64,000 nt of DNA from Escherichia phage RB43, in sequence record NC_007023.1; one strand, given 5' to 3'. A model generated the notes under the pieces. It was given only the letters and a program-made list of their open reading frames with translations. It was not told the DNA's origin and made no database searches. Made by a program: the position numbers and the translations under genes. Positions 7,904 through 57,262 of the stretch are shown one piece after another. The stretch's first letter is position 1; each line of letters begins with the position of its first letter.

Positions 7904-8512
7904 ATGAAATCATTCAAAGAACTTATTTCTGAATCTGTTCAGAACAAAAAATTTGCAAAGACAGTTGATCTGGTTGACCGTGGTAATGCTTCAAAAGGTC
8001 AGATCGGTTTCTTACACTTCGCACATGGTGCTGACTACGATGTGTATGCTCCTGATTCTCACGATCTGGCTTACTTCGGTAAAGGCGTTGTTCGTTTGAA
8101 AGGTAAAACCACTGGCAAAACTCAGGCTGCTTATGTTGACTGGGCGAAAGGCACGGTTTCATTCTACAGCGGTGATCCTGCTGATGACCTGAAATTTGAC
8201 AAGCCAGCAAAATTCAAAGGTGCTTCCCTGTACAAAGAAGCGGAAGAGAACATTGATCTGTATAACCAGTTAGCGGAAGATTTCGAAATCGATCTTCCTC
8301 TGGATGAAGCGCTGGTGAAAGGCGGGATCTATAAACTGCCGAGTAACGATATGCACTTGCTGTATACCGGACGCACCAAAACCAAACCAACTGGGGAATA
8401 TGCGGTATTCACTGTTGTTGATGCTTCTGGTAAACCTCGTCTGGTATCCGGCGCACGATTCACCCAGGAATACAAAGGCGACGTAGTAGCCAAACTGGAA
8501 AAAGTCAAATAA
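7904..8512 (+). CDS. internal-protein-like protein with capsid targeting sequence (about 203 aa)
   Basis: N-terminus MKSFKELISE matches T4 CTS consensus MKTYQEFIAE; + gene inside minus-strand block; ATG at 7904 preferred over ORF-track start 7808. Confidence 0.6.
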   Translation: MKSFKELISESVQNKKFAKTVDLVDRGNASKGQIGFLHFAHGADYDVYAPDSHDLAYFGKGVVRLKGKTTGKTQAAYVDWAKGTVSFYSGDPADDLKFDKPAKFKGASLYKEAEENIDLYNQLAEDFEIDLPLDEALVKGGIYKLPSNDMHLLYTGRTKTKPTGEYAVFTVVDASGKPRLVSGARFTQEYKGDVVAKLEKVK

Positions 8513-37881: not shown

Positions 37882-38529
37882 ATGAATGAATCCCAACTCA
37901 ATGAAAACGGCGATATGCTGCTAATCGAGGAATGGGGTTTACCTTGTGCGGATATTTCTGATTCTATTTTGGAATCGGTCGGAACGTCGAAAGACGGTAA
38001 ACTTAGGATTGAAGGTATTTTCCTGCAAGCCGAAAAAGTTAACCGAAATAAACGACTGTATCCGAAAAAAGTATTAGAAGAAGCAGTAAATGACTATATC
38101 AGAACTCAGGTTAATACCCGTCAAGCTCTGGGTGAAATGAATCACCCGCCGCGACCGAACGTCGATCCGCGTAATGCTTGCATCCTCATTGAAAAAATGT
38201 GGTGGAAGGGTAATGACGTTTGGGGCCGTGCTGTTGTTGTCGAAGGTGACAATGGTGATGGTGATAAACTTGCAGCGTTAATTCGTGCTGGTTGGGTTCC
38301 TGGTGTTTCTTCTCGCGGATTAGGTAAACTTGCCGATTCTGGTAAAGGTTACGGTATCGTACAAGAAGGTTTTAAATTGGCAGTAGGTGTTGATGTTGTT
38401 TGGGGGCCAAGCGCTCCAGATGCTTACGTTAAGCCAATTACCGAATCTCAGCAGACAAAACCGCTTGTTGAGAATATTAGTGCTGATGACGCTTTCAGAA
38501 AACTTTCTGAACGTTTGAAAGGTCTATAA
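37882..38529 (+). CDS. 21: prohead core protease gp21
   Basis: NRNKRLYPK, NHPPRPNVDP, MWWKGNDVWGRA, GWVPGVSSRGLG match T4 gp21. Confidence 0.9.
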   Translation: MNESQLNENGDMLLIEEWGLPCADISDSILESVGTSKDGKLRIEGIFLQAEKVNRNKRLYPKKVLEEAVNDYIRTQVNTRQALGEMNHPPRPNVDPRNACILIEKMWWKGNDVWGRAVVVEGDNGDGDKLAALIRAGWVPGVSSRGLGKLADSGKGYGIVQEGFKLAVGVDVVWGPSAPDAYVKPITESQQTKPLVENISADDAFRKLSERLKGL

Positions 38530-38559: not shown

Positions 38560-39348
38560 ATGCTAAAAGAACAACTGTTGGCAGAAGCCCAGAACCTGGA
38601 TACCCCAGTTGAGTTAGACAGCATTTTCGAATCAGTTGAACTTTCTGATGAAGTGAAAGCGAATTTCACCACTGTATTCGAACAAGCTGTAAAAGCAAAC
38701 GCTGTTAAACTCGCTGAATCCCATATCAATCAGATCGCGGAACGTTCCGACGAATTGGTTGAAGCCCAGGTTGCCGAAAAAGCTGGCGAAATCGAAACAC
38801 GACTGTACGAAGATGCAAATAAATACTTCGACCACATCGCGCAAGAATGGCTCTCTGAAAATAAAGAAGCCGTATCCCGCGATATTAAGGCCGACCTATT
38901 CGAATCTCTGGTTACTGGCATGAAAGAATTGTTCGTTGATCACAACGTAATTATTCCAGAAGCCCAGGTTGATGTTGTTGCAGAACTCGAAGATGAACTG
39001 ACCGAAAATCAGCAGGAAGTTAAACGCCTGTTCGAAGCAAATCAGGCTCAGGCTAAAGAGATCGCCAACATGAAACGCGATACCATCGTTTCAGAAAAAA
39101 CCAAAGATTTAACTGAATCTCAGGTTGAGAAAGTTCACAATCTGATCGAAGGTTTGGAATATTCCGACAAGTTCGAATCCAAACTGACCGCAATTGTCGA
39201 AATGGTAGCGACTAAAGCGGAAAAACAGGTTGACGAGAGTACCACTACTCAGACAACCAAAGACGATTTTGTTCCGGTGAATGAAAACACTCCGGCAGAG
39301 AAATCGAAGATCAATAAATATGTTGAAGCGGCTAAACGCCTTTCCTAA
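38560..39348 (+). CDS. 22: prohead core scaffold protein gp22
   Basis: 262 aa acidic coiled-coil; synteny. Confidence 0.8.
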   Translation: MLKEQLLAEAQNLDTPVELDSIFESVELSDEVKANFTTVFEQAVKANAVKLAESHINQIAERSDELVEAQVAEKAGEIETRLYEDANKYFDHIAQEWLSENKEAVSRDIKADLFESLVTGMKELFVDHNVIIPEAQVDVVAELEDELTENQQEVKRLFEANQAQAKEIANMKRDTIVSEKTKDLTESQVEKVHNLIEGLEYSDKFESKLTAIVEMVATKAEKQVDESTTTQTTKDDFVPVNENTPAEKSKINKYVEAAKRLS

Positions 39349-39369: not shown

Positions 39370-40944
39370 ATGTCTAAGAAAAACGAATTGATGGAAAAAT
39401 GGAACGATCTTCTGGAATCTCAGGAAGGTTTACCGGATATCGCTACCAAATCCAAAAAACAACTGGTTGCTGCCATTCTGGAAGCCCAGGAAAAAGACGC
39501 TGAAACCGATCCGGTTTATCGCGACGAAAAAATCGTGGAATCCTTCGGTGGTTTCCTGGCCGAAGCAGAAATTGCTGGCGACCACAACTATGACCAGACT
39601 AACATCGCGTCTGGTAAATCCAGCGGTGCTATCACCAACATCGGTCCTGCTGTAATCGGTATGGTTCGCCGTGCGATCCCTAACCTGATTGCATTCGACA
39701 TTTGCGGTGTTCAGCCTATGACTGGCCCTACTGGTCAGGTGTTCGCTCTCCGTGCTGTCTACGGTAAAGATCCTCTGGCTGGCGGTACTCCGGCAGATGT
39801 TCGTGAAGCGTTCCATCCGATGTTTGCCCCGGATACCATGTATTCTGGTGAAGGTGCTCACACCGCATTCGCGAAAATCACCACTGGTACAGCGATCGCT
39901 ACTGGCGCTATCGTATACCACATTTTCCAGGAAACTGGTATTGCATACTTCCAGAACGTTACCTCCGGCAACGTGACTGTAACTGGTGCTGATCCGGCTG
40001 CTCTGGATGCTGCTGTAATCGCAGAGAACGAAAAAGGTACTCTGGCTGAAATCTCTGTTGGTATGGCTACCAGTGTAGCAGAACTGCAAGAGAACTTCAA
40101 CGGTTCTAGCGCTAACCCGTGGAACGAAATGGCTTTCCGTATCGACAAACAGGTTATCGAAGCCCGTAGCCGCCAACTGAAAGCACAGTATTCTGTTGAA
40201 CTGGCACAGGATCTTCGCGCTGTTCACGGTATGGATGCTGACGCAGAACTGTCTGCAATTCTGGCAACTGAAATCATGCTGGAAATCAACCGCGAAATCG
40301 TTGATCTGATCAACTATACCGCTCAGGTTGGTAAATCTGGTTTCACCCAGACCGTAGGCTCTAAAGCTGGTTCCTTCGACTTCCAAGATCCGGTAGATAT
40401 TCGCGGCGCTCGTTGGGCTGGTGAAAGCTACAAGGCTCTGCTGATTCAGATCGACAAAGAAGCAAACGAAATCGCACGTCAGACAGGCCGTGGTGCTGGT
40501 AACTTCATCATCGCTTCCCGTAACGTGGTTTCCGCTCTGGCTCGTATCGACAGCGGCATCACTCCGGCAAGTCAAGGTCTCCAGAAGACTCTGAACGTTG
40601 ATACCACGAAAGCAGTATTCGCTGGTGTTCTGGGTGGCACTTACAAAGTGTACATTGACCAGTACGCACGTCAGGATTACTTCACCGTTGGCTTCAAGGG
40701 CGACAACGAAATGGATGCTGGTATCTACTACGCGCCATACGTTGCACTGACCCCGCTGCGTGGTTCTGATCCGAAGAACTTCCAGCCAGTAATGGGCTTC
40801 AAAACTCGTTACGGTATCGGTATCAACCCGTTTGCGAACTCTCGCTCTCAGGCTCCGGCAGATCGTATCACCTCTGGTATGATCAGCAAAGAAATGTGCG
40901 GTAAAAACGCATACTTCCGTAAGGTCTGGGTTAAAGGTCTGTAA
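39370..40944 (+). CDS. 23: major capsid protein gp23
   Basis: Near-colinear with T4 gp23 (GPAVIGMVRRAIPNLIAFDICGVQPM, DAGIYYAPYVALTPLRGSDPKNFQPVMGFKTRYGIGINPFA). Confidence 0.95.
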   Translation: MSKKNELMEKWNDLLESQEGLPDIATKSKKQLVAAILEAQEKDAETDPVYRDEKIVESFGGFLAEAEIAGDHNYDQTNIASGKSSGAITNIGPAVIGMVRRAIPNLIAFDICGVQPMTGPTGQVFALRAVYGKDPLAGGTPADVREAFHPMFAPDTMYSGEGAHTAFAKITTGTAIATGAIVYHIFQETGIAYFQNVTSGNVTVTGADPAALDAAVIAENEKGTLAEISVGMATSVAELQENFNGSSANPWNEMAFRIDKQVIEARSRQLKAQYSVELAQDLRAVHGMDADAELSAILATEIMLEINREIVDLINYTAQVGKSGFTQTVGSKAGSFDFQDPVDIRGARWAGESYKALLIQIDKEANEIARQTGRGAGNFIIASRNVVSALARIDSGITPASQGLQKTLNVDTTKAVFAGVLGGTYKVYIDQYARQDYFTVGFKGDNEMDAGIYYAPYVALTPLRGSDPKNFQPVMGFKTRYGIGINPFANSRSQAPADRITSGMISKEMCGKNAYFRKVWVKGL

Positions 40945-43532: not shown

Positions 43533-43566
43533 AAAGCCCCTTCCTTTCGGTTGGGGCTTCTTTTTT
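43533..43566. terminator. bidirectional rho-independent terminator
   Basis: AAAGCCCCTTCCTTTCGGTTGGGGCTTCTTTTTT; hairpin identical to 8520-8541. Confidence 0.6.
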
Positions 43567-43795
43567 AGAACTTCTCTTCTTCTCCGGTTTCAAGTTCGGC
43601 TTTGAGTTCTTCACGCCGTCCCTTGATCGCGTCACGCATTGAAATGTCATCGGATGCTGCAACTTCAACTTCCTTGACCCGCGTATTGTAATACTTTTCC
43701 AACTCTTTCAAACCGTCCAATGTACGGCACGAAGCAACTTTATTCATGAAATCATCAATTGCGGCTTCGTTAACGAATTCAGTAAAACTTTTCAT
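43565..43795 (-). CDS. small capsid-targeting-sequence protein (76 aa)
   Basis: N-terminus MKSFTEFVNEA matches T4 CTS; GAGG SD; co-transcribed downstream of uvsW. Confidence 0.55.
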   Translation of the reverse strand: MKSFTEFVNEAAIDDFMNKVASCRTLDGLKELEKYYNTRVKEVEVAASDDISMRDAIKGRREELKAELETGEEEKF

Positions 43796-46787: not shown

Positions 46788-47324
46788 TTGTCAGATGGTA
46801 AAGAAATCGAGAACGTTATATTCCTCGATATTGACGGCGTGTTAAATAATATGCGCTCTATGAAATTCGGTGAACATATGGACATCGAATGTGCGCGACA
46901 TCTACGCCGGATCGTCAACCATGCAAATTGTGATATCGTTGTTTCTTCAACGTGGCGCATTGGGAACACGACACACACCCTACGCGAAATCCTGTACCCC
47001 TGGGGCTTGTATCGCGTTATCGGTCGAACCTGTAGCAACATGGTTGGTAATTGTGTGCGTGGTGATGAAATAAAGGCGTGGATCGATACGTTCGGATGTA
47101 AGAACTACATGATCCTTGATGATGATTGTGATATGTTGCCAGAACAAAAAGATCACTTCGTCAGAACAGATCCTGAAATCGGGCTTACCGAAGAACAATC
47201 AACCTTTGCGATCCGCAATATATTTGGAGTAACAACCCCGTTTTGTCCTGAATGCAACGGCTATGGGCGCGTGAACCAATACGATAAATGCGGTAGCTGT
47301 AACGGTAAAAAATTGCGTCTATAA
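46788..47324 (+). CDS. HAD-superfamily phosphatase-like protein with C-terminal zinc ribbon
   Basis: FLDIDGVLNN (motif I), ILDDD, CPECNGYG...CGSCNG; start ambiguous (TTG 46788, or ATG 46775 if A3 run 46782-46784 is read as A2). Confidence 0.5.
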   Translation: MSDGKEIENVIFLDIDGVLNNMRSMKFGEHMDIECARHLRRIVNHANCDIVVSSTWRIGNTTHTLREILYPWGLYRVIGRTCSNMVGNCVRGDEIKAWIDTFGCKNYMILDDDCDMLPEQKDHFVRTDPEIGLTEEQSTFAIRNIFGVTTPFCPECNGYGRVNQYDKCGSCNGKKLRL

Positions 47325-47870: not shown

Positions 47871-48371
47871 ATGCTTCTATTCGAATTCAATGATGTATTC
47901 GCGAAGTTTAGTGATGCAATTCAGGCAAAATTCGGCAAACGTCCCGAAAACATGACAGAAACAGAATACAATACTGCTGTTTCGTCCCTGGTTCGTACAG
48001 ATTTCTATGAAAAGCTGGCGATCGAGGTGTTGGGCTGGGACATGATGAAATGGGGTATGACTTATCGCGATCGCGAAGTTGGTTTCATTCTCGTCAATGA
48101 GGTTAAAAGCCCTCTGTGGGTAAACAACCAAAAAGTTGCATACATGGATAAGGTGTGTGCGGAAATGGGTATTGTGCGTCTGGATTTCTGGACGTGTAAG
48201 GATCTGAATGAACTGAAAGGTCATGCTTATCGTTGCCCTCTGATTTCTCGCAATGAGAAACATCGTCAAGCATGGGATAGCGCTGGCAAGTATCGCAGTG
48301 TATATCTGAATGATGACATGAACATCACTATTCAGGATGTGAACCGCGCCTTTGCGGATTACACACCATAA
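47871..48371 (+). CDS. hypothetical protein (166 aa)
   Basis: ORF with GAAGG SD. Confidence 0.5.
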   Translation: MLLFEFNDVFAKFSDAIQAKFGKRPENMTETEYNTAVSSLVRTDFYEKLAIEVLGWDMMKWGMTYRDREVGFILVNEVKSPLWVNNQKVAYMDKVCAEMGIVRLDFWTCKDLNELKGHAYRCPLISRNEKHRQAWDSAGKYRSVYLNDDMNITIQDVNRAFADYTP

Positions 48372-48379
48372 ACAAAAAA

Positions 48380-48408
48380 GGGAACCGCAATGGTTCCCTT
48401 TCTTTTTA
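48380..48408. terminator. bidirectional terminator (GGGAACCGCAATGGTTCCC plus T-run)
   Basis: 8-bp stem between convergent genes. Confidence 0.5.
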
Positions 48409-48867
48409 CAGCTTTCTAACTTCTTTCAACGCTTCTTCTTTGCTACCAACGAAGAGGATCGCTTTTCCTCCCGCTTTCCTGAAAGGTAGTACCGCTTTCG
48501 CTCTGTCATCGAACAGTACACCCTGACCTGCATAGGCTGCTTTTTCGCCGCTGCTTTTGGTGTAGTGGAATTCAGGCAGATATCCTAACAGTTTAACAAG
48601 CGCTTTGCGTTTTTGTTCTGCAACTTCTTCGGAATTGTATTTACCGACACTGGTCAAGATCGCAACCTCGCCTAATGTTCTCATATGGCAGAACAGCGCA
48701 ACACCTTCTTCAATCGGTTTTAAATTTTCGTAGAAGTCGGTTTTAGATATTGCCTCTTTTGCCTTTTTGAGTTCATCCTGTGGCATTCTTGCTGGATCAC
48801 CATACATCGGTATGAAAGAACCTTCCCAATCAAACAGTACACCATCCATATCAAAGAAAAATTTCAT
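48406..48867 (-). CDS. HAD-superfamily 5'-nucleotidase-like protein
   Basis: FDMDGVLFDW motif I; internal ATG (MKFFFDMDG...) preferred to avoid overlap with 48917-49750. Confidence 0.55.
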   Translation of the reverse strand: MKFFFDMDGVLFDWEGSFIPMYGDPARMPQDELKKAKEAISKTDFYENLKPIEEGVALFCHMRTLGEVAILTSVGKYNSEEVAEQKRKALVKLLGYLPEFHYTKSSGEKAAYAGQGVLFDDRAKAVLPFRKAGGKAILFVGSKEEALKEVRKL

Positions 48868-48916
48868 ATCAATTCCTCGCTTTGTGTGTGCATCATATTC
48901 ATATATGTTCTCATTG

Positions 48917-49750
48917 TCAACCCCATGTATCGGTTTTGGGTGCGTATGCTGCAACTTTAGCAACCAATTCCTTATCAAGCTGGTCAATAGATTTCTGTGC
49001 TTTACCTTTTGACTTAACTTTGATGTAGTTAGACTTGACAACAAACATACCGCCTTTGTCAGATTTTTTGATCTCGCTATCGATACCAACTTTGTTAAAG
49101 CTGATCCAGATATCACCATCCATATACTGTTTCAGTGAATCGCCCATGTTCAGGATCTTAGCCATAGTAAGAGCGGCCCCTTCGTGGGTATCCATGAGGA
49201 TCTCTTTAGGAACCACACGGTCACGTTTCAGGTTCTGCTGCATAGCAATATGAACATCGTTCATTACCCAAACGATATGGATGTTTTCTTTATGGTATCC
49301 CAGCGTTTCAACGTCACGGGCAATGCTTGCCAGCTTGCTCATGCTTTTTAGGGTAACGTCGAAAATCAGGTTTGGTTTGCGGTCTTCTGGTGCTGCTGCA
49401 ATACCAGCATAAACACGCGCCTGGTTTTTGTTGGATACGTTGAAAACGTCTGCGATCACATGATGCAGGGTTGCCACGTTATCCGGGTTTTTCAGGTTCA
49501 TGGTTTTAACATCATGACCAGTTTTAGCTTTGATTTCTGCCGCCAGTTTGGTGCTACCCATTACCAGCTTTTTCAGTGCGTCAACGTCCAGTGTGATTCC
49601 TTCGATACCTAACAGTTTTTCGAGGGTAAAACCTTTACCGGAACCCGCACCGCCAGCCAGGATCACAACCTGACCAAATTTAGGATATGCCTTGCCGCCA
49701 AACGTAATCAACGCTTCGTCAAGGGATACAAAGTCTTTGAATGATTTCAT
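48917..49750 (-). CDS. capsid-targeting-sequence protein with P-loop kinase-like domain
   Basis: N-terminus MKSFKDFVSLDEA (CTS-like) followed by Walker A VVILAGGAGSGKGFT. Confidence 0.6.
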   Translation of the reverse strand: MKSFKDFVSLDEALITFGGKAYPKFGQVVILAGGAGSGKGFTLEKLLGIEGITLDVDALKKLVMGSTKLAAEIKAKTGHDVKTMNLKNPDNVATLHHVIADVFNVSNKNQARVYAGIAAAPEDRKPNLIFDVTLKSMSKLASIARDVETLGYHKENIHIVWVMNDVHIAMQQNLKRDRVVPKEILMDTHEGAALTMAKILNMGDSLKQYMDGDIWISFNKVGIDSEIKKSDKGGMFVVKSNYIKVKSKGKAQKSIDQLDKELVAKVAAYAPKTDTWG

Positions 49751-49782
49751 CTTAGAACTCCAGGGTTATTTTAATATATTTA

Positions 49783-49812
49783 TTGACACCGTTTATTGGT
49801 TGGGTTTATAGT
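49783..49812 (+). promoter_or_regulatory. sigma70-like promoter (TTGACA-18-TATAGT)
   Basis: In divergent intergenic region upstream of ORF 49863. Confidence 0.4.
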
Positions 49813-49862: not shown

Positions 49863-50783
49863 ATGAAACTTGAATTAAACCGCTTCATCAAAGCCGCTGC
49901 TGCTGGCGACCAGTCAAAATACAAATCCCGTCGCGATACCCTGATTGACGATTTCTGTAATCTGCTGGGGTTCAAGCGCTGGCATACTCCGTCTATGCGT
50001 CCAGACTGTGATCCAAAATGGGATTACTTCAAATGGACTCCCCGCGATCGTGGTTATGTCGATAACGTCCGCGTAATGACATTCACTCATATGTACGCAA
50101 ATGCAATAATAGAAGTTGCCAAACGTAATAATTCTACGTACCCGAACGGGTGGAAGGTTGCAGAAGTCATTGAAACCCTGATGCAACTGCGCCGTGAATA
50201 TAAAGCTGGAATGATGATGCAACTGCGCCGTGAATATAAAGCTGGAATGATACGTAAATTGGAAGAACAATCCGAAAGACATGAATATAAAGAATGGTCT
50301 ATCGTCGCAAAATATCTGCTGAACATCACCTATTCGGTTTTCTGTCGCTTCGGAACAAAAGAAATCGGGTTCGGTTCTCATGATATCATTGCAGAAGCCC
50401 GTCATCGCCTGACATACGCGATCCTGAAAATTCAAAATTCCGGTGGTCTTGTTCTGGCTGCATTCTGTGATGAAATTGTGTACTACGGCGATCAGGTTGA
50501 AGTTGAAGGTGTTCACCACGAAAAATTCAACAAACTTGTGTTCGGACAATATAACAGCTATTCATACGGAAACGATATCCGCGTGATGATGCACCCGCGT
50601 ATTATGCTGGATATGGAAGGGTGGGAACCTGGACACGGGATCGGTGATATCGAAAGCCAGCGTGAACGCCGTGTTCGTTCTGTCGCAAAAGCTCGCGAAT
50701 TGATGACGGGTAGCCTTACTGATTACCTGTTCAGAACAAAAGAAGACGTTGAAAAAGAATTTGTTGACTTGTCGGGCGAATAG
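49863..50783 (+). CDS. hypothetical protein (306 aa) containing a 36-bp tandem duplication
   Basis: ORF; MQLRREYKAGMM / MQLRREYKAGMI duplicated in frame. Confidence 0.55.
   Translation: MKLELNRFIKAAAAGDQSKYKSRRDTLIDDFCNLLGFKRWHTPSMRPDCDPKWDYFKWTPRDRGYVDNVRVMTFTHMYANAIIEVAKRNNSTYPNGWKVAEVIETLMQLRREYKAGMMMQLRREYKAGMIRKLEEQSERHEYKEWSIVAKYLLNITYSVFCRFGTKEIGFGSHDIIAEARHRLTYAILKIQNSGGLVLAAFCDEIVYYGDQVEVEGVHHEKFNKLVFGQYNSYSYGNDIRVMMHPRIMLDMEGWEPGHGIGDIESQRERRVRSVAKARELMTGSLTDYLFRTKEDVEKEFVDLSGE
50181..50252 (+). repeat. tandem duplication, 2 x 36 bp (35/36 identical)
   Basis: ATGCAACTGCGCCGTGAATATAAAGCTGGAATGAT(G/A) repeated head to tail. Confidence 0.85.
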
Positions 50784-55542: not shown

Positions 55543-56973
55543 ATGCAAACTTTTAATGAACTGAATAGCATCATCACCTCAACCGATTCCTACAAAGTGT
55601 CTCACTGGATGCAGTATCCGCAAGGCACTGATGCAGCGATGTTCTATATCGAATCTCGCGGTGGTAAATTTGATGAAGTAGTAACCGCTGGCGTTAACTA
55701 CGTTGCGCGGGTTCTCGCTGAACCAATTACCATGAAGCAGGTTGAGTTAGCGCGGGTACTTTACCGTAAACACTTCGGAAAAGAGATCTTTAACTACGAA
55801 GGGTGGAAAAAGATTGCTGAACTGGGTTACACCCCTGTAATTTTCCGTGCGATCCCAGAAGGTACGGTGTTCCGGGAAAAATGCCGTGCGACTGTGTACG
55901 CCGAAAACGAATTCTCGTGGCTGGCTGGGTGGCTGGAGACAATGACGATTCGCGGTATTTGGTATCCGTCATCTGTAGCAACGCTATCGCGTGAGTGTAA
56001 AAAGGTTCTGGCACACTACCTGGATATGACTTCTGACCTTACTGGCGAAGCATATAACATCACACTGGGTACACGTCTGCATGATTTTGGGGCGCGGGGC
56101 GCGACCTCTGCTGAATCTGCTGGCATTGGTGGGCTGGCACACCTTTATAACTTCATCGGCACTGATACCGTAGAAGGGATGATTATGGCAATCAGCCTCT
56201 TTGCGGATTATCAAACACTGTTTGATGAAGTTGAAAACGTAGAAGTAGCTGGGGTTTCCATCCCTGCTCGTGAGCATTCAACTACGATTTCCTACGGTAA
56301 AGAAAACGAAGACGAAGCATATAAAAACAGCATTGAAATGTTCGGTGATGGGTTCTACGCTTGCGTATACGATTCATGGGACTACAAAGCCGCTGTTGAC
56401 CGGATCGATAGTTATAAAGAGAAAATCATTGCATCTGGCGGTGTGTTGGTAGTGCGTCCAGACTCAGGGGATATGATAGACAACATCATGTACACCTTGC
56501 GCAAACTGGGGCAAATCTTCGGATATACTGTCAACTCCAAAGGGTACAAAGTTCTTCATAACTCTGTTCGTATCATCCAGGGTGACGAGATCCACGGGCC
56601 TGAAACAATCAACCGTGTATTAAGCTGGATGGAAGCGAACAAATGGTCGAGCGAAAACATTGCGTTCGGTATGGGTGGCGGTTTGCTGCAAGAAGTTACC
56701 CGCGATACCCAGAAATATGCTGAAAAACTTTGCGCTATCCGTATCAACGGTGTGTGGAAAGGCGTTTACAAATGCCCGAAAGGTTCGGAATGGAAAAAGA
56801 GCAAGAAAGGTTTATTGATGACCATCACTAACGGGATGGAATTCAAGACAATCGATTCTCTCGAAGAATCTATTCCTGCTGGGTGGTTTGATGCGATGGT
56901 AACTTATTATGACAATGGTTATCTGAACAAAACTGACACTTTAGGGGAAATTCGTGAGCGTAGCCGGATTTAA
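55543..56973 (+). CDS. nadV: nicotinamide phosphoribosyltransferase (NAMPT)
   Basis: TDSYKVSHW, GTRLHDFGARGATS, VVRPDSGD, IQGDEI, FGMGGGLLQ are NAMPT signatures. Confidence 0.85.
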   Translation: MQTFNELNSIITSTDSYKVSHWMQYPQGTDAAMFYIESRGGKFDEVVTAGVNYVARVLAEPITMKQVELARVLYRKHFGKEIFNYEGWKKIAELGYTPVIFRAIPEGTVFREKCRATVYAENEFSWLAGWLETMTIRGIWYPSSVATLSRECKKVLAHYLDMTSDLTGEAYNITLGTRLHDFGARGATSAESAGIGGLAHLYNFIGTDTVEGMIMAISLFADYQTLFDEVENVEVAGVSIPAREHSTTISYGKENEDEAYKNSIEMFGDGFYACVYDSWDYKAAVDRIDSYKEKIIASGGVLVVRPDSGDMIDNIMYTLRKLGQIFGYTVNSKGYKVLHNSVRIIQGDEIHGPETINRVLSWMEANKWSSENIAFGMGGGLLQEVTRDTQKYAEKLCAIRINGVWKGVYKCPKGSEWKKSKKGLLMTITNGMEFKTIDSLEESIPAGWFDAMVTYYDNGYLNKTDTLGEIRERSRI

Positions 56974-57262
56974 TATCCGCGCCAACGATAACGGATCTGT
57001 AATCTTCTATAACAATCAGCCCCTTGTTGCTCGCAAGGGGCTTTTTTGTAAGTTAGTTGGGTATGGGTTCAAGTTGGAACAGGTGGATAATGCAACACTA
57101 AAAGAGATCGTGCGCATAGCCTATCTCCTGAAAGATAAGAAAGATGAACATAAGGCGGTTGCAATGCTGGAGAAATTGGGAGAAAATCATTGCTTCATCA
57201 TAAATCGTGGATACAAATACGATACAATCGCTTTATTTGAAAAAGGGCTTAGTGAACTATGA
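56954..57262 (+). CDS. hypothetical protein (102 aa)
   Basis: ORF between nadV and dam; start codon uncertain (GTG). Confidence 0.35.
   Translation: MSVAGFNIRANDNGSVIFYNNQPLVARKGLFCKLVGYGFKLEQVDNATLKEIVRIAYLLKDKKDEHKAVAMLEKLGENHCFIINRGYKYDTIALFEKGLSEL

What the first reader, a model, noticed from the sequence alone, without database searches (positions are those of the whole stretch)
48917..49750. Capsid-targeted protein with a Walker-A kinase-like body: candidate injected enzyme
The N-terminus MKSFKDFVSLDEA resembles the T4 capsid targeting sequence (MKTYQEFIAE, processed by gp21 after the Glu) that directs internal proteins into the head for co-injection with DNA. The body carries a Walker A motif (ILAGGAGSGKGFT) like adenylate-kinase or zeta-toxin-type P-loop kinases. 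I do not recall a packaged P-loop kinase in T4, whose known head cargo is IPI-III and Alt, so this would be a new class of injected effector.
Basis: partly seen in the sequence, partly recalled or inferred. Interest (0 to 1): 0.75.

Follow-up and report, generated by a model that had tools for sequence, protein, structure and literature searches.

The report
Late-made phage kinase with head-targeting tag
Phage RB43 encodes a widespread, uncharacterised kinase that is switched on late and carries the same short N-terminal tag and protease cut site that phage T4 uses to load proteins into its head, so it is probably packaged and injected with the DNA, though nobody has yet looked for it in virions.

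Summary
Window 48917..49750 (-) is a real 277-aa gene of phage RB43 that starts MKSFKDFVSLDE|A and carries the Walker A GGAGSGKG.

The body is a confident P-loop kinase fold (pLDDT 93). Its nearest folds are AvrRxo1, zeta/PezT toxins and polynucleotide kinases, and the catalytic Lys, Asp and Arg are invariant.

The capsid-targeting idea gained three new lines of support:
- Across about 180 relatives, an aromatic-x-x-aromatic unit stays at the extreme N-terminus. It is followed by a spacer of 0-57 residues and an L/I-x-E (95%) just before the body. This is the layout of T4 IPI.
- The first 10 residues are not part of the predicted fold.
- 60% of distinct loci have a T4 late promoter just upstream, against 4% of neighbouring genes.

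Evidence against:
- No virion proteomics exists for any phage carrying the gene.
- UvsW.1 and T4 gp61.1 carry similar N-termini.
- The gene often sits among replication genes.
- It is recurrently paired with an early 5'(3')-nucleotidase.
- Some relatives are fused to nucleotide-metabolism domains.

Verdict: probably (about 0.55) a gp21-processed, head-packaged kinase with unknown substrate. It would be a new payload for a known delivery system. Virion delivery of zeta-like kinases by another route (MuF fusions) was predicted in silico in 2017.

The parts
48917..49750 (-). Kinase gene, 277 aa precursor (30.3 kDa, pI 9.3); member of phrog_5268 and weak member of Pfam Zeta_toxin
49715..49750 (-). 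Predicted propeptide MKSFKDFVSLDE (residues 1-12): CTS-like unit MKSFKDF (F4, F7) followed by the cleavage motif
   Evidence: mean pLDDT 57 for residues 1-10
49715..49723 (-). L10-D11-E12, predicted gp21 cleavage site (cut between E12 and A13); the only [L/I]-x-E in the whole protein
   Evidence: cleavage rule from PMC9026906
48920..49714 (-). Predicted mature protein, residues 13-277 (28.9 kDa, pI 9.4): P-loop kinase core plus a family-specific C-terminal beta subdomain (about residues 205-277)
49631..49654 (-). Walker A GGAGSGKG (G33, G38 and K39 invariant); site of intein insertion in some relatives
49571..49588 (-). D55-V-D57...K60: D57 invariant and aligned to T4 PNK general base D35; K60 aligned to R38
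49346..49381 (-). RKPN(124-127)-LIF-DVTLK(131-135): invariant N127, near-invariant D131 and T133 (Walker-B / substrate-loop region)
49217..49225 (-). R176-D-R178, invariant lid arginines (R176 aligned to T4 PNK R126)
49777..49784 (-). AATAAATA, late-promoter variant ending 26 nt before the ATG; conserved in RB16 and KP27, and CATAAATA in POP12
   Evidence: A or T at -13 is normal in RB43 (PMC1524935); not in Nolan's predicted list
49758..49761 (-). Shine-Dalgarno GGAG
48892..48920 (-). Sigma-70-type early promoter TTGACA-17-TATGAT at the 3' end of the kinase gene, driving the downstream nucleotidase gene (Nolan Pe:144934)
   Evidence: the same arrangement is annotated in KP27
48406..48867 (-). 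NT5C-type 5'(3')-deoxyribonucleotidase (HAD), recurrent downstream partner; catalytic DMDGV starts at residue 6, so there is no propeptide
48374..48404 (-). Bidirectional intrinsic terminator ending the kinase-nucleotidase unit
   Evidence: also annotated in KP27
37882..38529 (+). gp21 prohead protease of RB43, the enzyme predicted to cut the propeptide; gp22 scaffold lies at 38560..39348 and gp23 at 39370..40944 with the conserved FLAE|AEIAGD site
   Evidence: T4 counterparts

Best explanation
The gene encodes an active P-loop phosphotransferase of the zeta-toxin / AvrRxo1 / polynucleotide-kinase clade. It is made late in infection with a short N-terminal capsid targeting sequence. The tag (M-K-S-F-K-D-F, aromatic residues at 4 and 7) docks the precursor onto the gp22 scaffolding core of the assembling prohead. 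The gp21 protease then cuts after L10-D11-E12 and leaves a basic 28.9-kDa enzyme (residues 13-277) inside the head. There it has no ATP and is inactive. Like T4 Alt and the internal proteins, it is then most likely ejected with the DNA and can act before any phage gene is expressed. Its substrate is most likely a sugar hydroxyl of a nucleotide-type molecule found in all bacteria (for example NAD, a nucleotide sugar, a nucleoside or nucleotide, or a nucleic-acid end). The neighbouring NT5C 5'(3')-nucleotidase is made early from its own promoter and may reverse or recycle the product. Shown here: fold, catalytic residues, conservation and modularity of the N-terminal signal, late-promoter association, and presence of the protease and scaffold. 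Inferred: packaging, cleavage, ejection, substrate, and the role of the nucleotidase.
For: (1) Signal conservation. In 176 of 182 relatives a Glu precedes the body, and P3 is L or I in 167 of those 176. P1' is Ala in 87 and Lys in 71. Among 23 relatives with that Glu at position 10, position 4 is F in 21, position 7 is F/Y in 22 and position 8 is L/I/V in 22, while positions 2, 3, 5, 6 and 9 vary. These are the positions T4 mutagenesis defined (PMC9026906). (2) Modularity. By the first-ATG rule, 46 of 57 unique N-termini keep the aromatic unit at the extreme N-terminus while the spacer to the body varies from 0 to 57 residues. T4 IPI has this layout: MKTFKEF-linker-ITE|A. (3) Residues 1-10 have mean pLDDT 57 in a model whose overall pLDDT is 93. 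(4) Late transcription. The ATAAATA core ends 8-60 nt upstream of the ATG in 34 of 57 distinct loci (26 of them full TATAAATA), plus 3 with the CTAAATA form reported for Aeromonas phage Aeh1. The rate is 4.0% for other ORF starts in the same loci and 1.1% for random windows; p about 9e-33. In the window the same NATAAATA variants precede gp19, gp23, gp2 and uvsW. (5) RB43 has gp21, gp22 and a gp23 with the L-x-E|A site. (6) In Vibrio phage nt-1 the Walker A is degenerate, yet the N-terminus MLGNFDSFLSE is kept and the gene follows gp24 and gp55 directly. (7) The gene neighbours hoc and inh in RB43, RB16, KP27 and POP12, and hoc-1 in Aeromonas phage 65. (8) L-D-E is the only [L/I]-x-E in the RB43 protein, and the mature part is basic. 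(9) All phage records with the gene are T4-like myoviruses or relatives with T4-type modules. (10) Kinase fold and invariant K39, D57, R176 and R178.
Against: There is no virion proteome, N-terminal sequence or expression data for any phage that carries the gene. The motif is not exclusive. RB43 and T4 UvsW.1 (MKSFTEFVNE|A and MLLEFKQFLYE|A) and T4 gp61.1 (MKTFKEFIKE) carry it without being known head proteins, and a relaxed pattern also hits T4 lysozyme and Td. Nolan et al. 2006 did not list a late promoter upstream of this gene among their 27 RB43 predictions. In most environmental contigs the gene lies among replication genes (gp32, gp33, gp59, gp43, gp44/45, UvsX) on the same strand. It is recurrently paired with an NT5C nucleotidase that has no propeptide. 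Some relatives are fused at their N-terminus to cytidylyltransferase or NUDIX domains, or at the C-terminus to HD, and several carry inteins in the P-loop; both are typical of cytoplasmic nucleotide enzymes. Unlike T4 IPs the family is large and strongly conserved. Depletion of internal [L/I]-x-E sites across the family is weak: observed/expected 0.89, against 1.16-1.35 in controls.
Confidence: 0.55

Rival explanations
1. A cytoplasmic enzyme of nucleotide metabolism or nucleic-acid repair that is never packaged. It works in the infected cell together with the adjacent NT5C 5'(3')-nucleotidase, as a kinase/phosphatase substrate cycle or a salvage step, or with the nearby SAK-HAD phosphatase and RNA ligase 2 as an extra end-healing kinase. 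The conserved N-terminus would serve some other purpose, such as translation efficiency, regulation, or an interaction or degradation signal.
Against: It does not explain why an aromatic unit is held at the extreme N-terminus at a variable distance from the fold, always followed by L/I-x-E. It does not explain why that signal survives where the P-loop has decayed. It does not explain why the gene has its own late promoter when its replication-gene neighbours do not; nucleotide-metabolism genes of T4-type phages are early or middle (established knowledge). RB43 already has a canonical PseT/Pnkp (39% identical to T4's over its full length). The NT5C partner has a separate early promoter, so the two genes are not simply co-expressed.
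Confidence: 0.3
2. A prohead-resident protein that is targeted and cleaved as proposed but acts inside the particle or during assembly, as an accessory of the scaffolding core or of DNA packaging. It would be lost or retained rather than delivered as an effector to the next host.
For: The same targeting evidence as the main explanation. In T4 several core proteins (gp67, gp68, gp22) are targeted, cleaved and largely expelled (PMC9026906). The protein is basic and could bind DNA. A weak PHROG link to a family annotated 'head maturation protease'.
Against: An intact, invariant kinase active site is hard to explain for a purely structural role, and ATP is not expected inside a sealed head. The gene is absent from T4 and many T4-like genera, so it is not needed for assembly in general. 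There is only one cleavage site, so the body is preserved rather than degraded.
Confidence: 0.1
3. A classical zeta/PezT-type toxin module (a UDP-GlcNAc 3'-kinase) carried by the phage as an addiction or abortive-infection element.
Against: No epsilon/PezA-like antitoxin gene is adjacent. The Pfam alignment covers only residues 104-199. TM-scores are 0.35-0.46. The family is confined to lytic T4-like phages. No PADLOC defence model matches.
Confidence: 0.04

Closest known systems
T4 internal proteins IPI, IPII and IPIII (CTS-directed head cargo)
   Same: N-terminal M-K-[ST]-[FY]-x-[DE]-F unit with aromatic residues at positions 4 and 7. A propeptide ending in L/I-x-E|A that fits gp21 specificity. 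The linker form is identical in layout to IPI (MKTFKEF-TSTTTPVST-ITE|A). Late promoter. Basic mature protein like IPII/IPIII. The host phage has gp21 and gp22.
   Different: It is an enzyme of 265 residues with a conserved active site, not a small non-enzymatic protein. The family is large (about 2,500 sequences and about 800 clusters at 50% identity) and strongly conserved across phages of enterobacteria, Aeromonas, Vibrio, Flavobacteria and marine hosts. T4 IPs are lineage-specific and hypervariable. It is not in the ip loci. Packaging has not been demonstrated.
T4 Alt (packaged, gp21-processed ADP-ribosyltransferase injected with the DNA)
   Same: Alt is the precedent for a catalytic host-modifying enzyme that is made late, processed by gp21, stored in the head and ejected with the DNA (PMC9026906; PMC5512222). 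In Vibrio phage nt-1 the kinase homologue lies about 3 kb from alt.
   Different: Different fold and chemistry (P-loop kinase versus ADP-ribosyltransferase). Alt's propeptide (MELITELFDE) is not the IP-type CTS. Alt has early unpackaged paralogues (ModA, ModB); no such paralogue of the kinase was seen in RB43.
AvrRxo1 (NAD 3'-kinase) and zeta/PezT toxins (UDP-GlcNAc 3'-kinases)
   Different: Only 12-16% identity and TM 0.35-0.46. It has a family-specific C-terminal beta subdomain with many invariant residues. No antitoxin or chaperone partner. Substrate unknown.
Polynucleotide 5'-kinases (T4 PseT/Pnkp, Clostridium thermocellum Pnkp, Pnkp1)
   Different: The hhalign probability is only 28%. RB43 has its own canonical bifunctional PseT elsewhere. 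The partner phosphatase is of the NT5C nucleotidase type, not the PNK-HAD type. PseT has no CTS and is not a late gene (established knowledge).
Zeta-toxin-like kinase domains fused to MuF or embedded in phage 'polyvalent proteins' (Iyer et al. 2017)
   Same: A published computational prediction that zeta-like P-loop kinases are carried in virions and injected (PMC5512222). BFVD shows such modules inside 900-1,500-aa phage proteins, one of which also carries an Acb1 domain.
   Different: Delivery there is by fusion to the MuF head protein or to giant multidomain proteins, in phages that are not T4-like. Here it is a stand-alone enzyme with a cleavable T4-type CTS. The sequences are only distantly related (11-22% identity).

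Membership tests
T4-type CTS-directed internal head proteins | N-terminal capsid targeting sequence with the targeting residues at positions 4 and 7 (aromatic in T4) | tested here: met
   F4 and F7 in RB43. In relatives with Glu at position 10, F at position 4 in 21 of 23 and F/Y at position 7 in 22 of 23. 46 of 57 unique N-termini keep the unit. T4 IPs shown for comparison. Rule from PMC9026906.
T4-type CTS-directed internal head proteins | Propeptide ends in a gp21 site, L/I-X-E, usually followed by Ala | tested here: met
   L10-D11-E12|A13. P3 is L or I in 167 of 176 relatives; P1' is Ala in 87 and Lys in 71.
T4-type CTS-directed internal head proteins | The phage encodes the gp21 prohead protease and the gp22 scaffolding core | tested here: met
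   gp21 at 37882..38529, gp22 at 38560..39348, and gp23 with FLAE|AEIAGD.
T4-type CTS-directed internal head proteins | Protein is available during prohead assembly (late transcription) | tested here: met
   Met at the level of promoter motifs only. AATAAATA lies 26 nt upstream in RB43, RB16 and KP27. 34 of 57 loci have the ATAAATA core against 4% background. Caveat: the site is not in Nolan's 27 predicted RB43 late promoters, and no RNA data exist.
T4-type CTS-directed internal head proteins | Physically present in purified virions with a processed N-terminus | not testable with these tools
   No virion proteome was found for any phage carrying the gene.
T4-type CTS-directed internal head proteins | Ejected into the host with the DNA | not testable with these tools
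   Requires experiment.
T4-type CTS-directed internal head proteins | Small, lineage-specific, rapidly diversifying protein in a plastic ip locus | tested here: not met
   277 aa and conserved at 45-60% identity across very distant T4-like phages, with about 800 clusters at 50% identity.
Zeta toxin / PezT (Pfam PF06414) | Match to the family profile above the curated cut-off | tested here: met
   30.7 bits against a cut-off of 22.3, but only residues 104-199 align.
Zeta toxin / PezT (Pfam PF06414) | Zeta-type P-loop kinase fold with Walker A Lys, general-base Asp and lid Arg | tested here: met
Zeta toxin / PezT (Pfam PF06414) | UDP-GlcNAc-binding GTXR motif and UNAG 3'-kinase activity | not tested
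   The equivalent stretch reads DVTLK (131-135) by eye only. No residue-level alignment to zeta was made, and activity needs an assay.
Zeta toxin / PezT (Pfam PF06414) | Adjacent cognate antitoxin (epsilon / PezA) | tested here: not met
   The neighbours are an NT5C nucleotidase and an unknown 306-aa ORF, neither antitoxin-like. No PADLOC hit.
AvrRxo1-type NAD 3'-kinase | Structural similarity to the AvrRxo1 kinase domain | tested here: met
AvrRxo1-type NAD 3'-kinase | Phosphorylates NAD/NAAD at the adenosine 3'-OH | not testable with these tools
   Needs an enzyme assay. The only hints are fusions of relatives to NMNAT-like cytidylyltransferase and NUDIX domains and an NAPRT-like gene 6 kb away.
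Polynucleotide kinase (T4 PseT/Pnkp clade) | Orthology to PseT (bifunctional kinase plus HAD 3'-phosphatase) | tested here: not met
   RB43 has a separate full-length PseT, 39% identical to T4 Pnk at E 3e-54. hhalign probability between this family and the T4 PNK kinase domain is 28%.
Polynucleotide kinase (T4 PseT/Pnkp clade) | Catalytic constellation K15 / D35 / R38 / R126 | tested here: met
MuF-fused / polyvalent-protein zeta-like kinases (Iyer 2017) | Kinase domain fused to MuF, portal or a giant multidomain virion protein | tested here: not met
   It is a stand-alone 277-aa protein. The longer relatives are intein-containing copies or fusions to cytidylyltransferase, NUDIX, HD or unknown PHROGs, none of them MuF.

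The most novel reading that the evidence does not exclude
The kinase is a pre-loaded first-strike enzyme. It is ejected with the DNA and, within seconds and before any phage transcription, phosphorylates a sugar hydroxyl of a universal nucleotide-type metabolite or immune messenger, for example NAD+ (as AvrRxo1 does), UDP-GlcNAc, or a cyclic or linear oligonucleotide signal. This would blunt NAD-depleting or nucleotide-signalling defences, or stall the host. The neighbouring NT5C 5'(3')-nucleotidase is transcribed from its own early promoter and then removes that phosphate once the phage is established. Together they would form a two-gene, time-separated kinase/phosphatase switch that many T4-like phages in gut and ocean have conserved.
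Probability: 0.15. Interest if true: 0.85.

Novelty: new variant of a known kind. Interest (0 to 1): 0.62.

Why it matters
T4's capsid targeting sequence is the textbook way a phage loads proteins for co-injection. The known natural cargo is small: three internal proteins with the IP-type tag, plus Alt, which has its own propeptide. If this family is packaged, it adds a catalytic P-loop kinase to that list. It would also show that the CTS system is an ancient and widely used delivery route: the family has about 800 sequence clusters in phages of enterobacteria, Aeromonas, Vibrio, Flavobacteria and marine bacteria, and is not a T-even peculiarity. It would give an experimentally tractable example (RB43, RB16 and KP15 grow on laboratory hosts) of an injected small-molecule or nucleic-acid kinase, a type of effector so far only predicted in silico. 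The enzyme's substrate could reveal a new early host-takeover or counter-defence step. The analysis also gives a simple recipe for finding further head cargo in T4-like genomes: an N-terminal aromatic unit, then L/I-x-E, plus a late promoter. In RB43 this recipe already flags a 202-aa protein between genes 3 and 2.

Tried and rejected
Literature:
- Ten full-text searches found no virion proteome, processing data or transcriptome for any phage with the gene.
- The vB_EcRAM-01 paper has SDS-PAGE only.
- The ValerieMcCarty virion mass spectrometry is for Jiaodavirus phages, a genus absent from the tblastn hits for this gene.
- The NAR 2026 5-hydroxycytosine paper only cites the CTS reference.
- The original PTm1 proteome paper is not in the library.

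The 'anti-RM protein dam3' label on the Roth23 homologue:
- It traces to an automated Pharokka/Phold/AntiDefenseFinder pass in the KlebPhaCol preprint, with no experiment behind it.
- 'Dam3' in the literature is a Mycoplasma methyltransferase.
- I rejected it as uninformative.

Sequence and structure searches:
- Sequence searches of the PDB gave only P-loop-level hits. NCBIfam and PADLOC gave nothing.
- The weak PHROG hit to 'head maturation protease' (phrog_13257) could not be substantiated. The N-terminal partners of the longer relatives are unknown PHROGs, cytidylyltransferase or NUDIX, not a gp21-like protease.

Hypotheses tested:
- Split-Pnkp replacement: rejected as a simple replacement because RB43 has a canonical PseT.
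- Selection against internal gp21 sites in the family: only weakly in the expected direction, observed/expected 0.89 against 1.16-1.35, with non-independent sequences. I treat it as inconclusive.

Other:
- The contig for the distant member P0262 was too short for context.
- My first 'nearest Met' start assignment mis-set several starts. I replaced it with the first-ATG rule.
Full report
**1. What is there**

The window is phage RB43 (Pseudotevenvirus, Straboviridae). The stretch 48917..49750 is 100% identical to HE981739 and HE858210 and to the 180,500-bp IMG/VR copy. On the minus strand it holds a 277-codon ORF with an ATG start and a GGAG Shine-Dalgarno. Public records call the gene 'protein of unknown function' or 'hypothetical protein'.

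**2. The body is a kinase**

- Pfam gives Zeta_toxin above its curated cut-off (30.7 against 22.3 bits), although only residues 104-199 align.
- PHROGs places the whole protein in phrog_5268, function unknown.
- NCBIfam, PADLOC and PDB sequence searches give nothing specific.
- An AlphaFold2 model built on 68 diverse relatives is confident: mean pLDDT 93.1, pTM 0.90.
- So it is a distinct family inside the clade of P-loop kinases that phosphorylate a sugar hydroxyl of a nucleotide-type substrate.
- Invariant residues across 68 sequences include G33, G38, K39, D57, N127, R176 and R178.
- A profile alignment puts K39, D57, K60 and R176 on the T4 PNK catalytic residues K15, D35, R38 and R126.
- Several relatives carry Hint/LAGLIDADG inteins inserted exactly in the Walker A ('GGAGC...'), which points to a functionally critical site.
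- The C-terminal third (about residues 205-277) is a beta subdomain specific to the family. It has many invariant residues, so the substrate is probably specific and common to very different hosts.

**3. How big is the family and where is it**

About 2,500 proteins match in the 90%-clustered database, and 803 representatives match at 50% clustering. All cultured-phage hits are T4-like myoviruses: Pseudotevenvirus, Slopekvirus, Aeromonas 65/CC2-like phages, KVP40/nt-1-like Vibrio phages, Pectobacterium POP12, Pantoea Phynn and others, plus the jumbo Tenacibaculum phages PTm1/PTm5. T4 itself lacks the gene. Environmental relatives sit on contigs with T4-type replication and head genes.

**4. Is the N-terminus a capsid targeting sequence?**

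The rule comes from the Black-laboratory literature (PMC9026906):
- gp21 cuts after L/I-X-E.
- In the IPIII decapeptide, residues 4 and 7 carry targeting.
- Residues 8 and 10 carry processing.

I read the T4 sequences directly. IPII and IPIII start MKTYQEFIAE|A. IPI starts MKTFKEF-TSTTTPVST-ITE|A. RB43's kinase starts MKSFKDF-VS-LDE|A. It matches IPI at 5 of the first 7 positions, the other two are conservative, and the layout is the same.

Family statistics:
- 176 of 182 members have Glu immediately before the body.
- P3 is L or I in 167 of those 176.
- P1' is Ala (87) or Lys (71).
- The distance from Met1 to that Glu ranges from 7 to 62 residues.
- In the 23 members where the Glu is at position 10, position 4 is F (21), position 7 is F/Y (22) and position 8 is L/I/V (22). 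Positions 2, 3, 5, 6 and 9 vary freely.

In 80 further loci from viral contigs I used the objective first-ATG rule. 46 of 57 unique N-termini begin with the aromatic unit, and 23 match the strict T4-like decapeptide. The spacer to the body varies from 0 to 57 residues. A typical marine form is MQSFNSFLKE-EAFLAEEAETL-LE|KLITFGG.

A motif that stays at the extreme N-terminus while its distance from the fold varies is behaving as an autonomous signal, not as part of the kinase. The model agrees: residues 1-10 have mean pLDDT 57.

In Vibrio phage nt-1 the homologous module has a broken Walker A (LGTASTEFSNGKG). It still begins MLGNFDSFLSE and directly follows gp24 and gp55.

RB43 encodes gp21, gp22 and a gp23 with the conserved FLAE|AEIAGD maturation site.

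L10-D11-E12 is the only [L/I]-x-E in the RB43 protein. The predicted mature product is 28.9 kDa with pI 9.4.

**5. Controls that limit this inference**

- In the whole RB43 genome only two annotated genes fit the strict pattern. The second is UvsW.1 (43565..43795, MKSFTEFVNE|A), a conserved 76-aa protein filed with the UvsW helicase.
- T4 UvsW.1 also starts MLLEFKQFLYE|A, and T4 gp61.1 starts MKTFKEFIKE.
- A relaxed pattern also hits T4 lysozyme and thymidylate synthase.
- The motif is therefore suggestive, not diagnostic. Roughly half to three quarters of strict hits in T4 are true cargo.
- A test for avoidance of internal gp21 sites across the family went only weakly in the expected direction: observed/expected 0.89, against 1.16 in T4 ORFs and 1.35 in RB43 ORFs.

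**6. Timing of expression**

In RB43, AATAAATA ends 26 nt before the ATG. The same element is kept in RB16 and KP27, and POP12 has CATAAATA, although the flanking sequence differs.

Nolan et al. 2006 state that the T at -13 is poorly conserved in these phages, being 'either A or T' (PMC1524935). In this window the NATAAATA variants precede gp19, gp23, gp2 and uvsW, and several of these coincide with Nolan's predicted late promoters. Their list does not include a site upstream of the kinase, and neither does their early-promoter list.

Across 57 loci with distinct upstream sequence:
- 34 have the ATAAATA core ending 8-60 nt upstream of the ATG: 26 are full TATAAATA, 5 AATAAATA and 3 CATAAATA.
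- 3 Aeromonas-phage loci have CTAAATA, the late consensus that Nolan et al. found for Aeromonas phage Aeh1.
- The background is 43 of 1,064 other ORF starts in the same loci (4.0%) and 1.1% of random windows. Binomial p is about 9e-33.

So the gene is a late gene family-wide, even where it is embedded among replication genes. In T4-type phages the late class is dominated by virion, assembly and lysis proteins, while nucleotide-metabolism enzymes are early or middle (established knowledge).

**7. Evidence pointing the other way**

- In RB43, RB16, KP27 and POP12 the gene lies between hoc/inh and srd/rnlB. It is followed on the same strand by an NT5C-type 5'(3')-deoxyribonucleotidase (48406..48867) and a terminator.
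- The same kinase-NT5C pair recurs in marine contigs that share only 54-61% kinase identity. NT5C is adjacent in 10 of 63 loci by tblastn.
- The nucleotidase has no propeptide. It has its own sigma-70-type early promoter inside the 3' end of the kinase gene (48892..48920), which matches Nolan's Pe:144934 and is also annotated in KP27.
- In environmental contigs the neighbours are mostly gp32, gp33, gp59, gp43, gp44/45, UvsX and gp41.
- A few relatives are fused to cytidylyltransferase (NMNAT-like), NUDIX or HD domains.
- Within 4 kb in RB43 there are a 'Swiss-army-knife' RNA-repair HAD phosphatase (46788..47324) and RNA ligase 2.
- RB43 also has a canonical PseT, so the kinase is not simply the phage's polynucleotide kinase.

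These links argue that the chemistry concerns nucleotides or nucleic-acid ends. They keep open a purely cytoplasmic role.

**8. Synthesis**

The best-supported reading (about 0.55) is a late-made kinase precursor that the IP-type CTS targets to the prohead core. gp21 trims it after E12, and it is stored in the head and most likely ejected with the DNA, as Alt and the IPs are.

The separate early promoter of the antagonistic nucleotidase fits a model in which the packaged kinase acts first and the phosphatase later reverses or recycles its product. That step is inference only.

The main rival (about 0.3) is a cytoplasmic late enzyme whose conserved N-terminus has another role. A head-resident but non-ejected role (about 0.1) and a classical zeta toxin-antitoxin module (below 0.05) are less likely.

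**9. Novelty**

CTS-directed head cargo and packaged enzymes (Alt) are known. Iyer et al. 2017 predicted in silico that zeta-toxin-like kinases fused to MuF or embedded in polyvalent proteins are delivered from virions (PMC5512222). BFVD shows such modules in giant phage proteins.

I found no description of this family, of a CTS-tagged kinase, or of any experiment on it. The only functional label in a public record, 'anti-RM protein dam3', is an unsupported automated call. I therefore rate it a new variant of a known kind. It is of moderate to high interest because it is widespread, sharply testable and enzymatically unexplored.

Noticed in passing
window 7904..8512 (+): A 202-aa ORF inserted between gene 3 and gene 2 starts MKSFKELISE|S, a CTS-like N-terminus with an I-x-E site. 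AATAAATA lies 38 nt upstream and coincides with Nolan's late promoter Pl:103833 (and early promoter Pe:103832). It has no Pfam domain and is restricted to Pseudotevenvirus, Slopekvirus and a few relatives. It is a second candidate head-internal protein of RB43.
   Followed up: partly
window 43565..43795 (-); T4 record OL964735.1 111723..111953 (L019 13723..13953): UvsW.1 (76 aa) has a CTS-like N-terminus ending in E|A in both RB43 (MKSFTEFVNE|AA) and T4 (MLLEFKQFLYE|AS), and uvsW has a late promoter. I used it as a negative control, but whether UvsW.1 itself enters the head seems never to have been asked.
   Followed up: partly
L017 16753..16917 (-) (T4 gene 61.1, OL964735.1): T4 gp61.1, a 54-aa protein of unknown function, starts MKTFKEFIKE. 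This is almost identical to the IPI/IPIII targeting sequences, including the I-x-E at residues 8-10.
   Followed up: no
P0165, P0215, P0178; L011 2900..4741 (PTm5 ORF-187): Several family members carry a Hint plus LAGLIDADG intein inserted in the Walker A motif (GGAGC...). PTm5's 613-aa 'fusion' is such an intein-containing copy.
   Followed up: partly
L010 3992..5437 (Vibrio phage nt-1 ORF331): The KVP40/nt-1-type homologue is a 481-aa protein. Its N-terminal kinase-like module has a disrupted Walker A but keeps the CTS-like start and the YPKFGQV strand. The C-terminal 250 residues or so have no Pfam match. It sits directly after gp24 and gp55, about 3 kb from alt.
   Followed up: partly
window 46788..47324 (+): A 178-aa protein with a 'Swiss-army-knife' RNA-repair HAD phosphatase domain (PF18143, E 1e-28) and a C-terminal CXXCXGXG zinc ribbon. 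It lies between inh and hoc, with AATAAATA 22 nt upstream, which matches Nolan's late promoter Pl:142733.
   Followed up: no
window 47871..48371 (+) and 48406..48867 (-): Two paralogous NT5C-type 5'(3')-deoxyribonucleotidase genes (both phrog_2643) lie tail to tail and share a bidirectional terminator at 48374..48404.
   Followed up: no
window 50179..50251 (+), inside ORF 49863..50783: An exact 36-bp tandem duplication (2.0 copies, 100% match) repeats the peptide MQLRREYKAGM in the 306-aa unknown protein (phrog_7439) that is transcribed divergently from the kinase.
   Followed up: partly
window 55545..56978 (+): A nicotinate/nicotinamide phosphoribosyltransferase-like gene (annotated as such in RB16, RB16p239) lies about 6 kb from the kinase and just upstream of dam. 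It may be relevant if the kinase acts on NAD-type substrates.
   Followed up: no
P0131, P0132, P0137; L093, L098: Some environmental relatives have 110-300-residue N-terminal extensions matching unknown PHROGs (2859, 23027, 14518). They still keep an internal aromatic unit plus L-x-E at the junction with the kinase body, as if the junction could be cleaved to release two products.
   Followed up: partly
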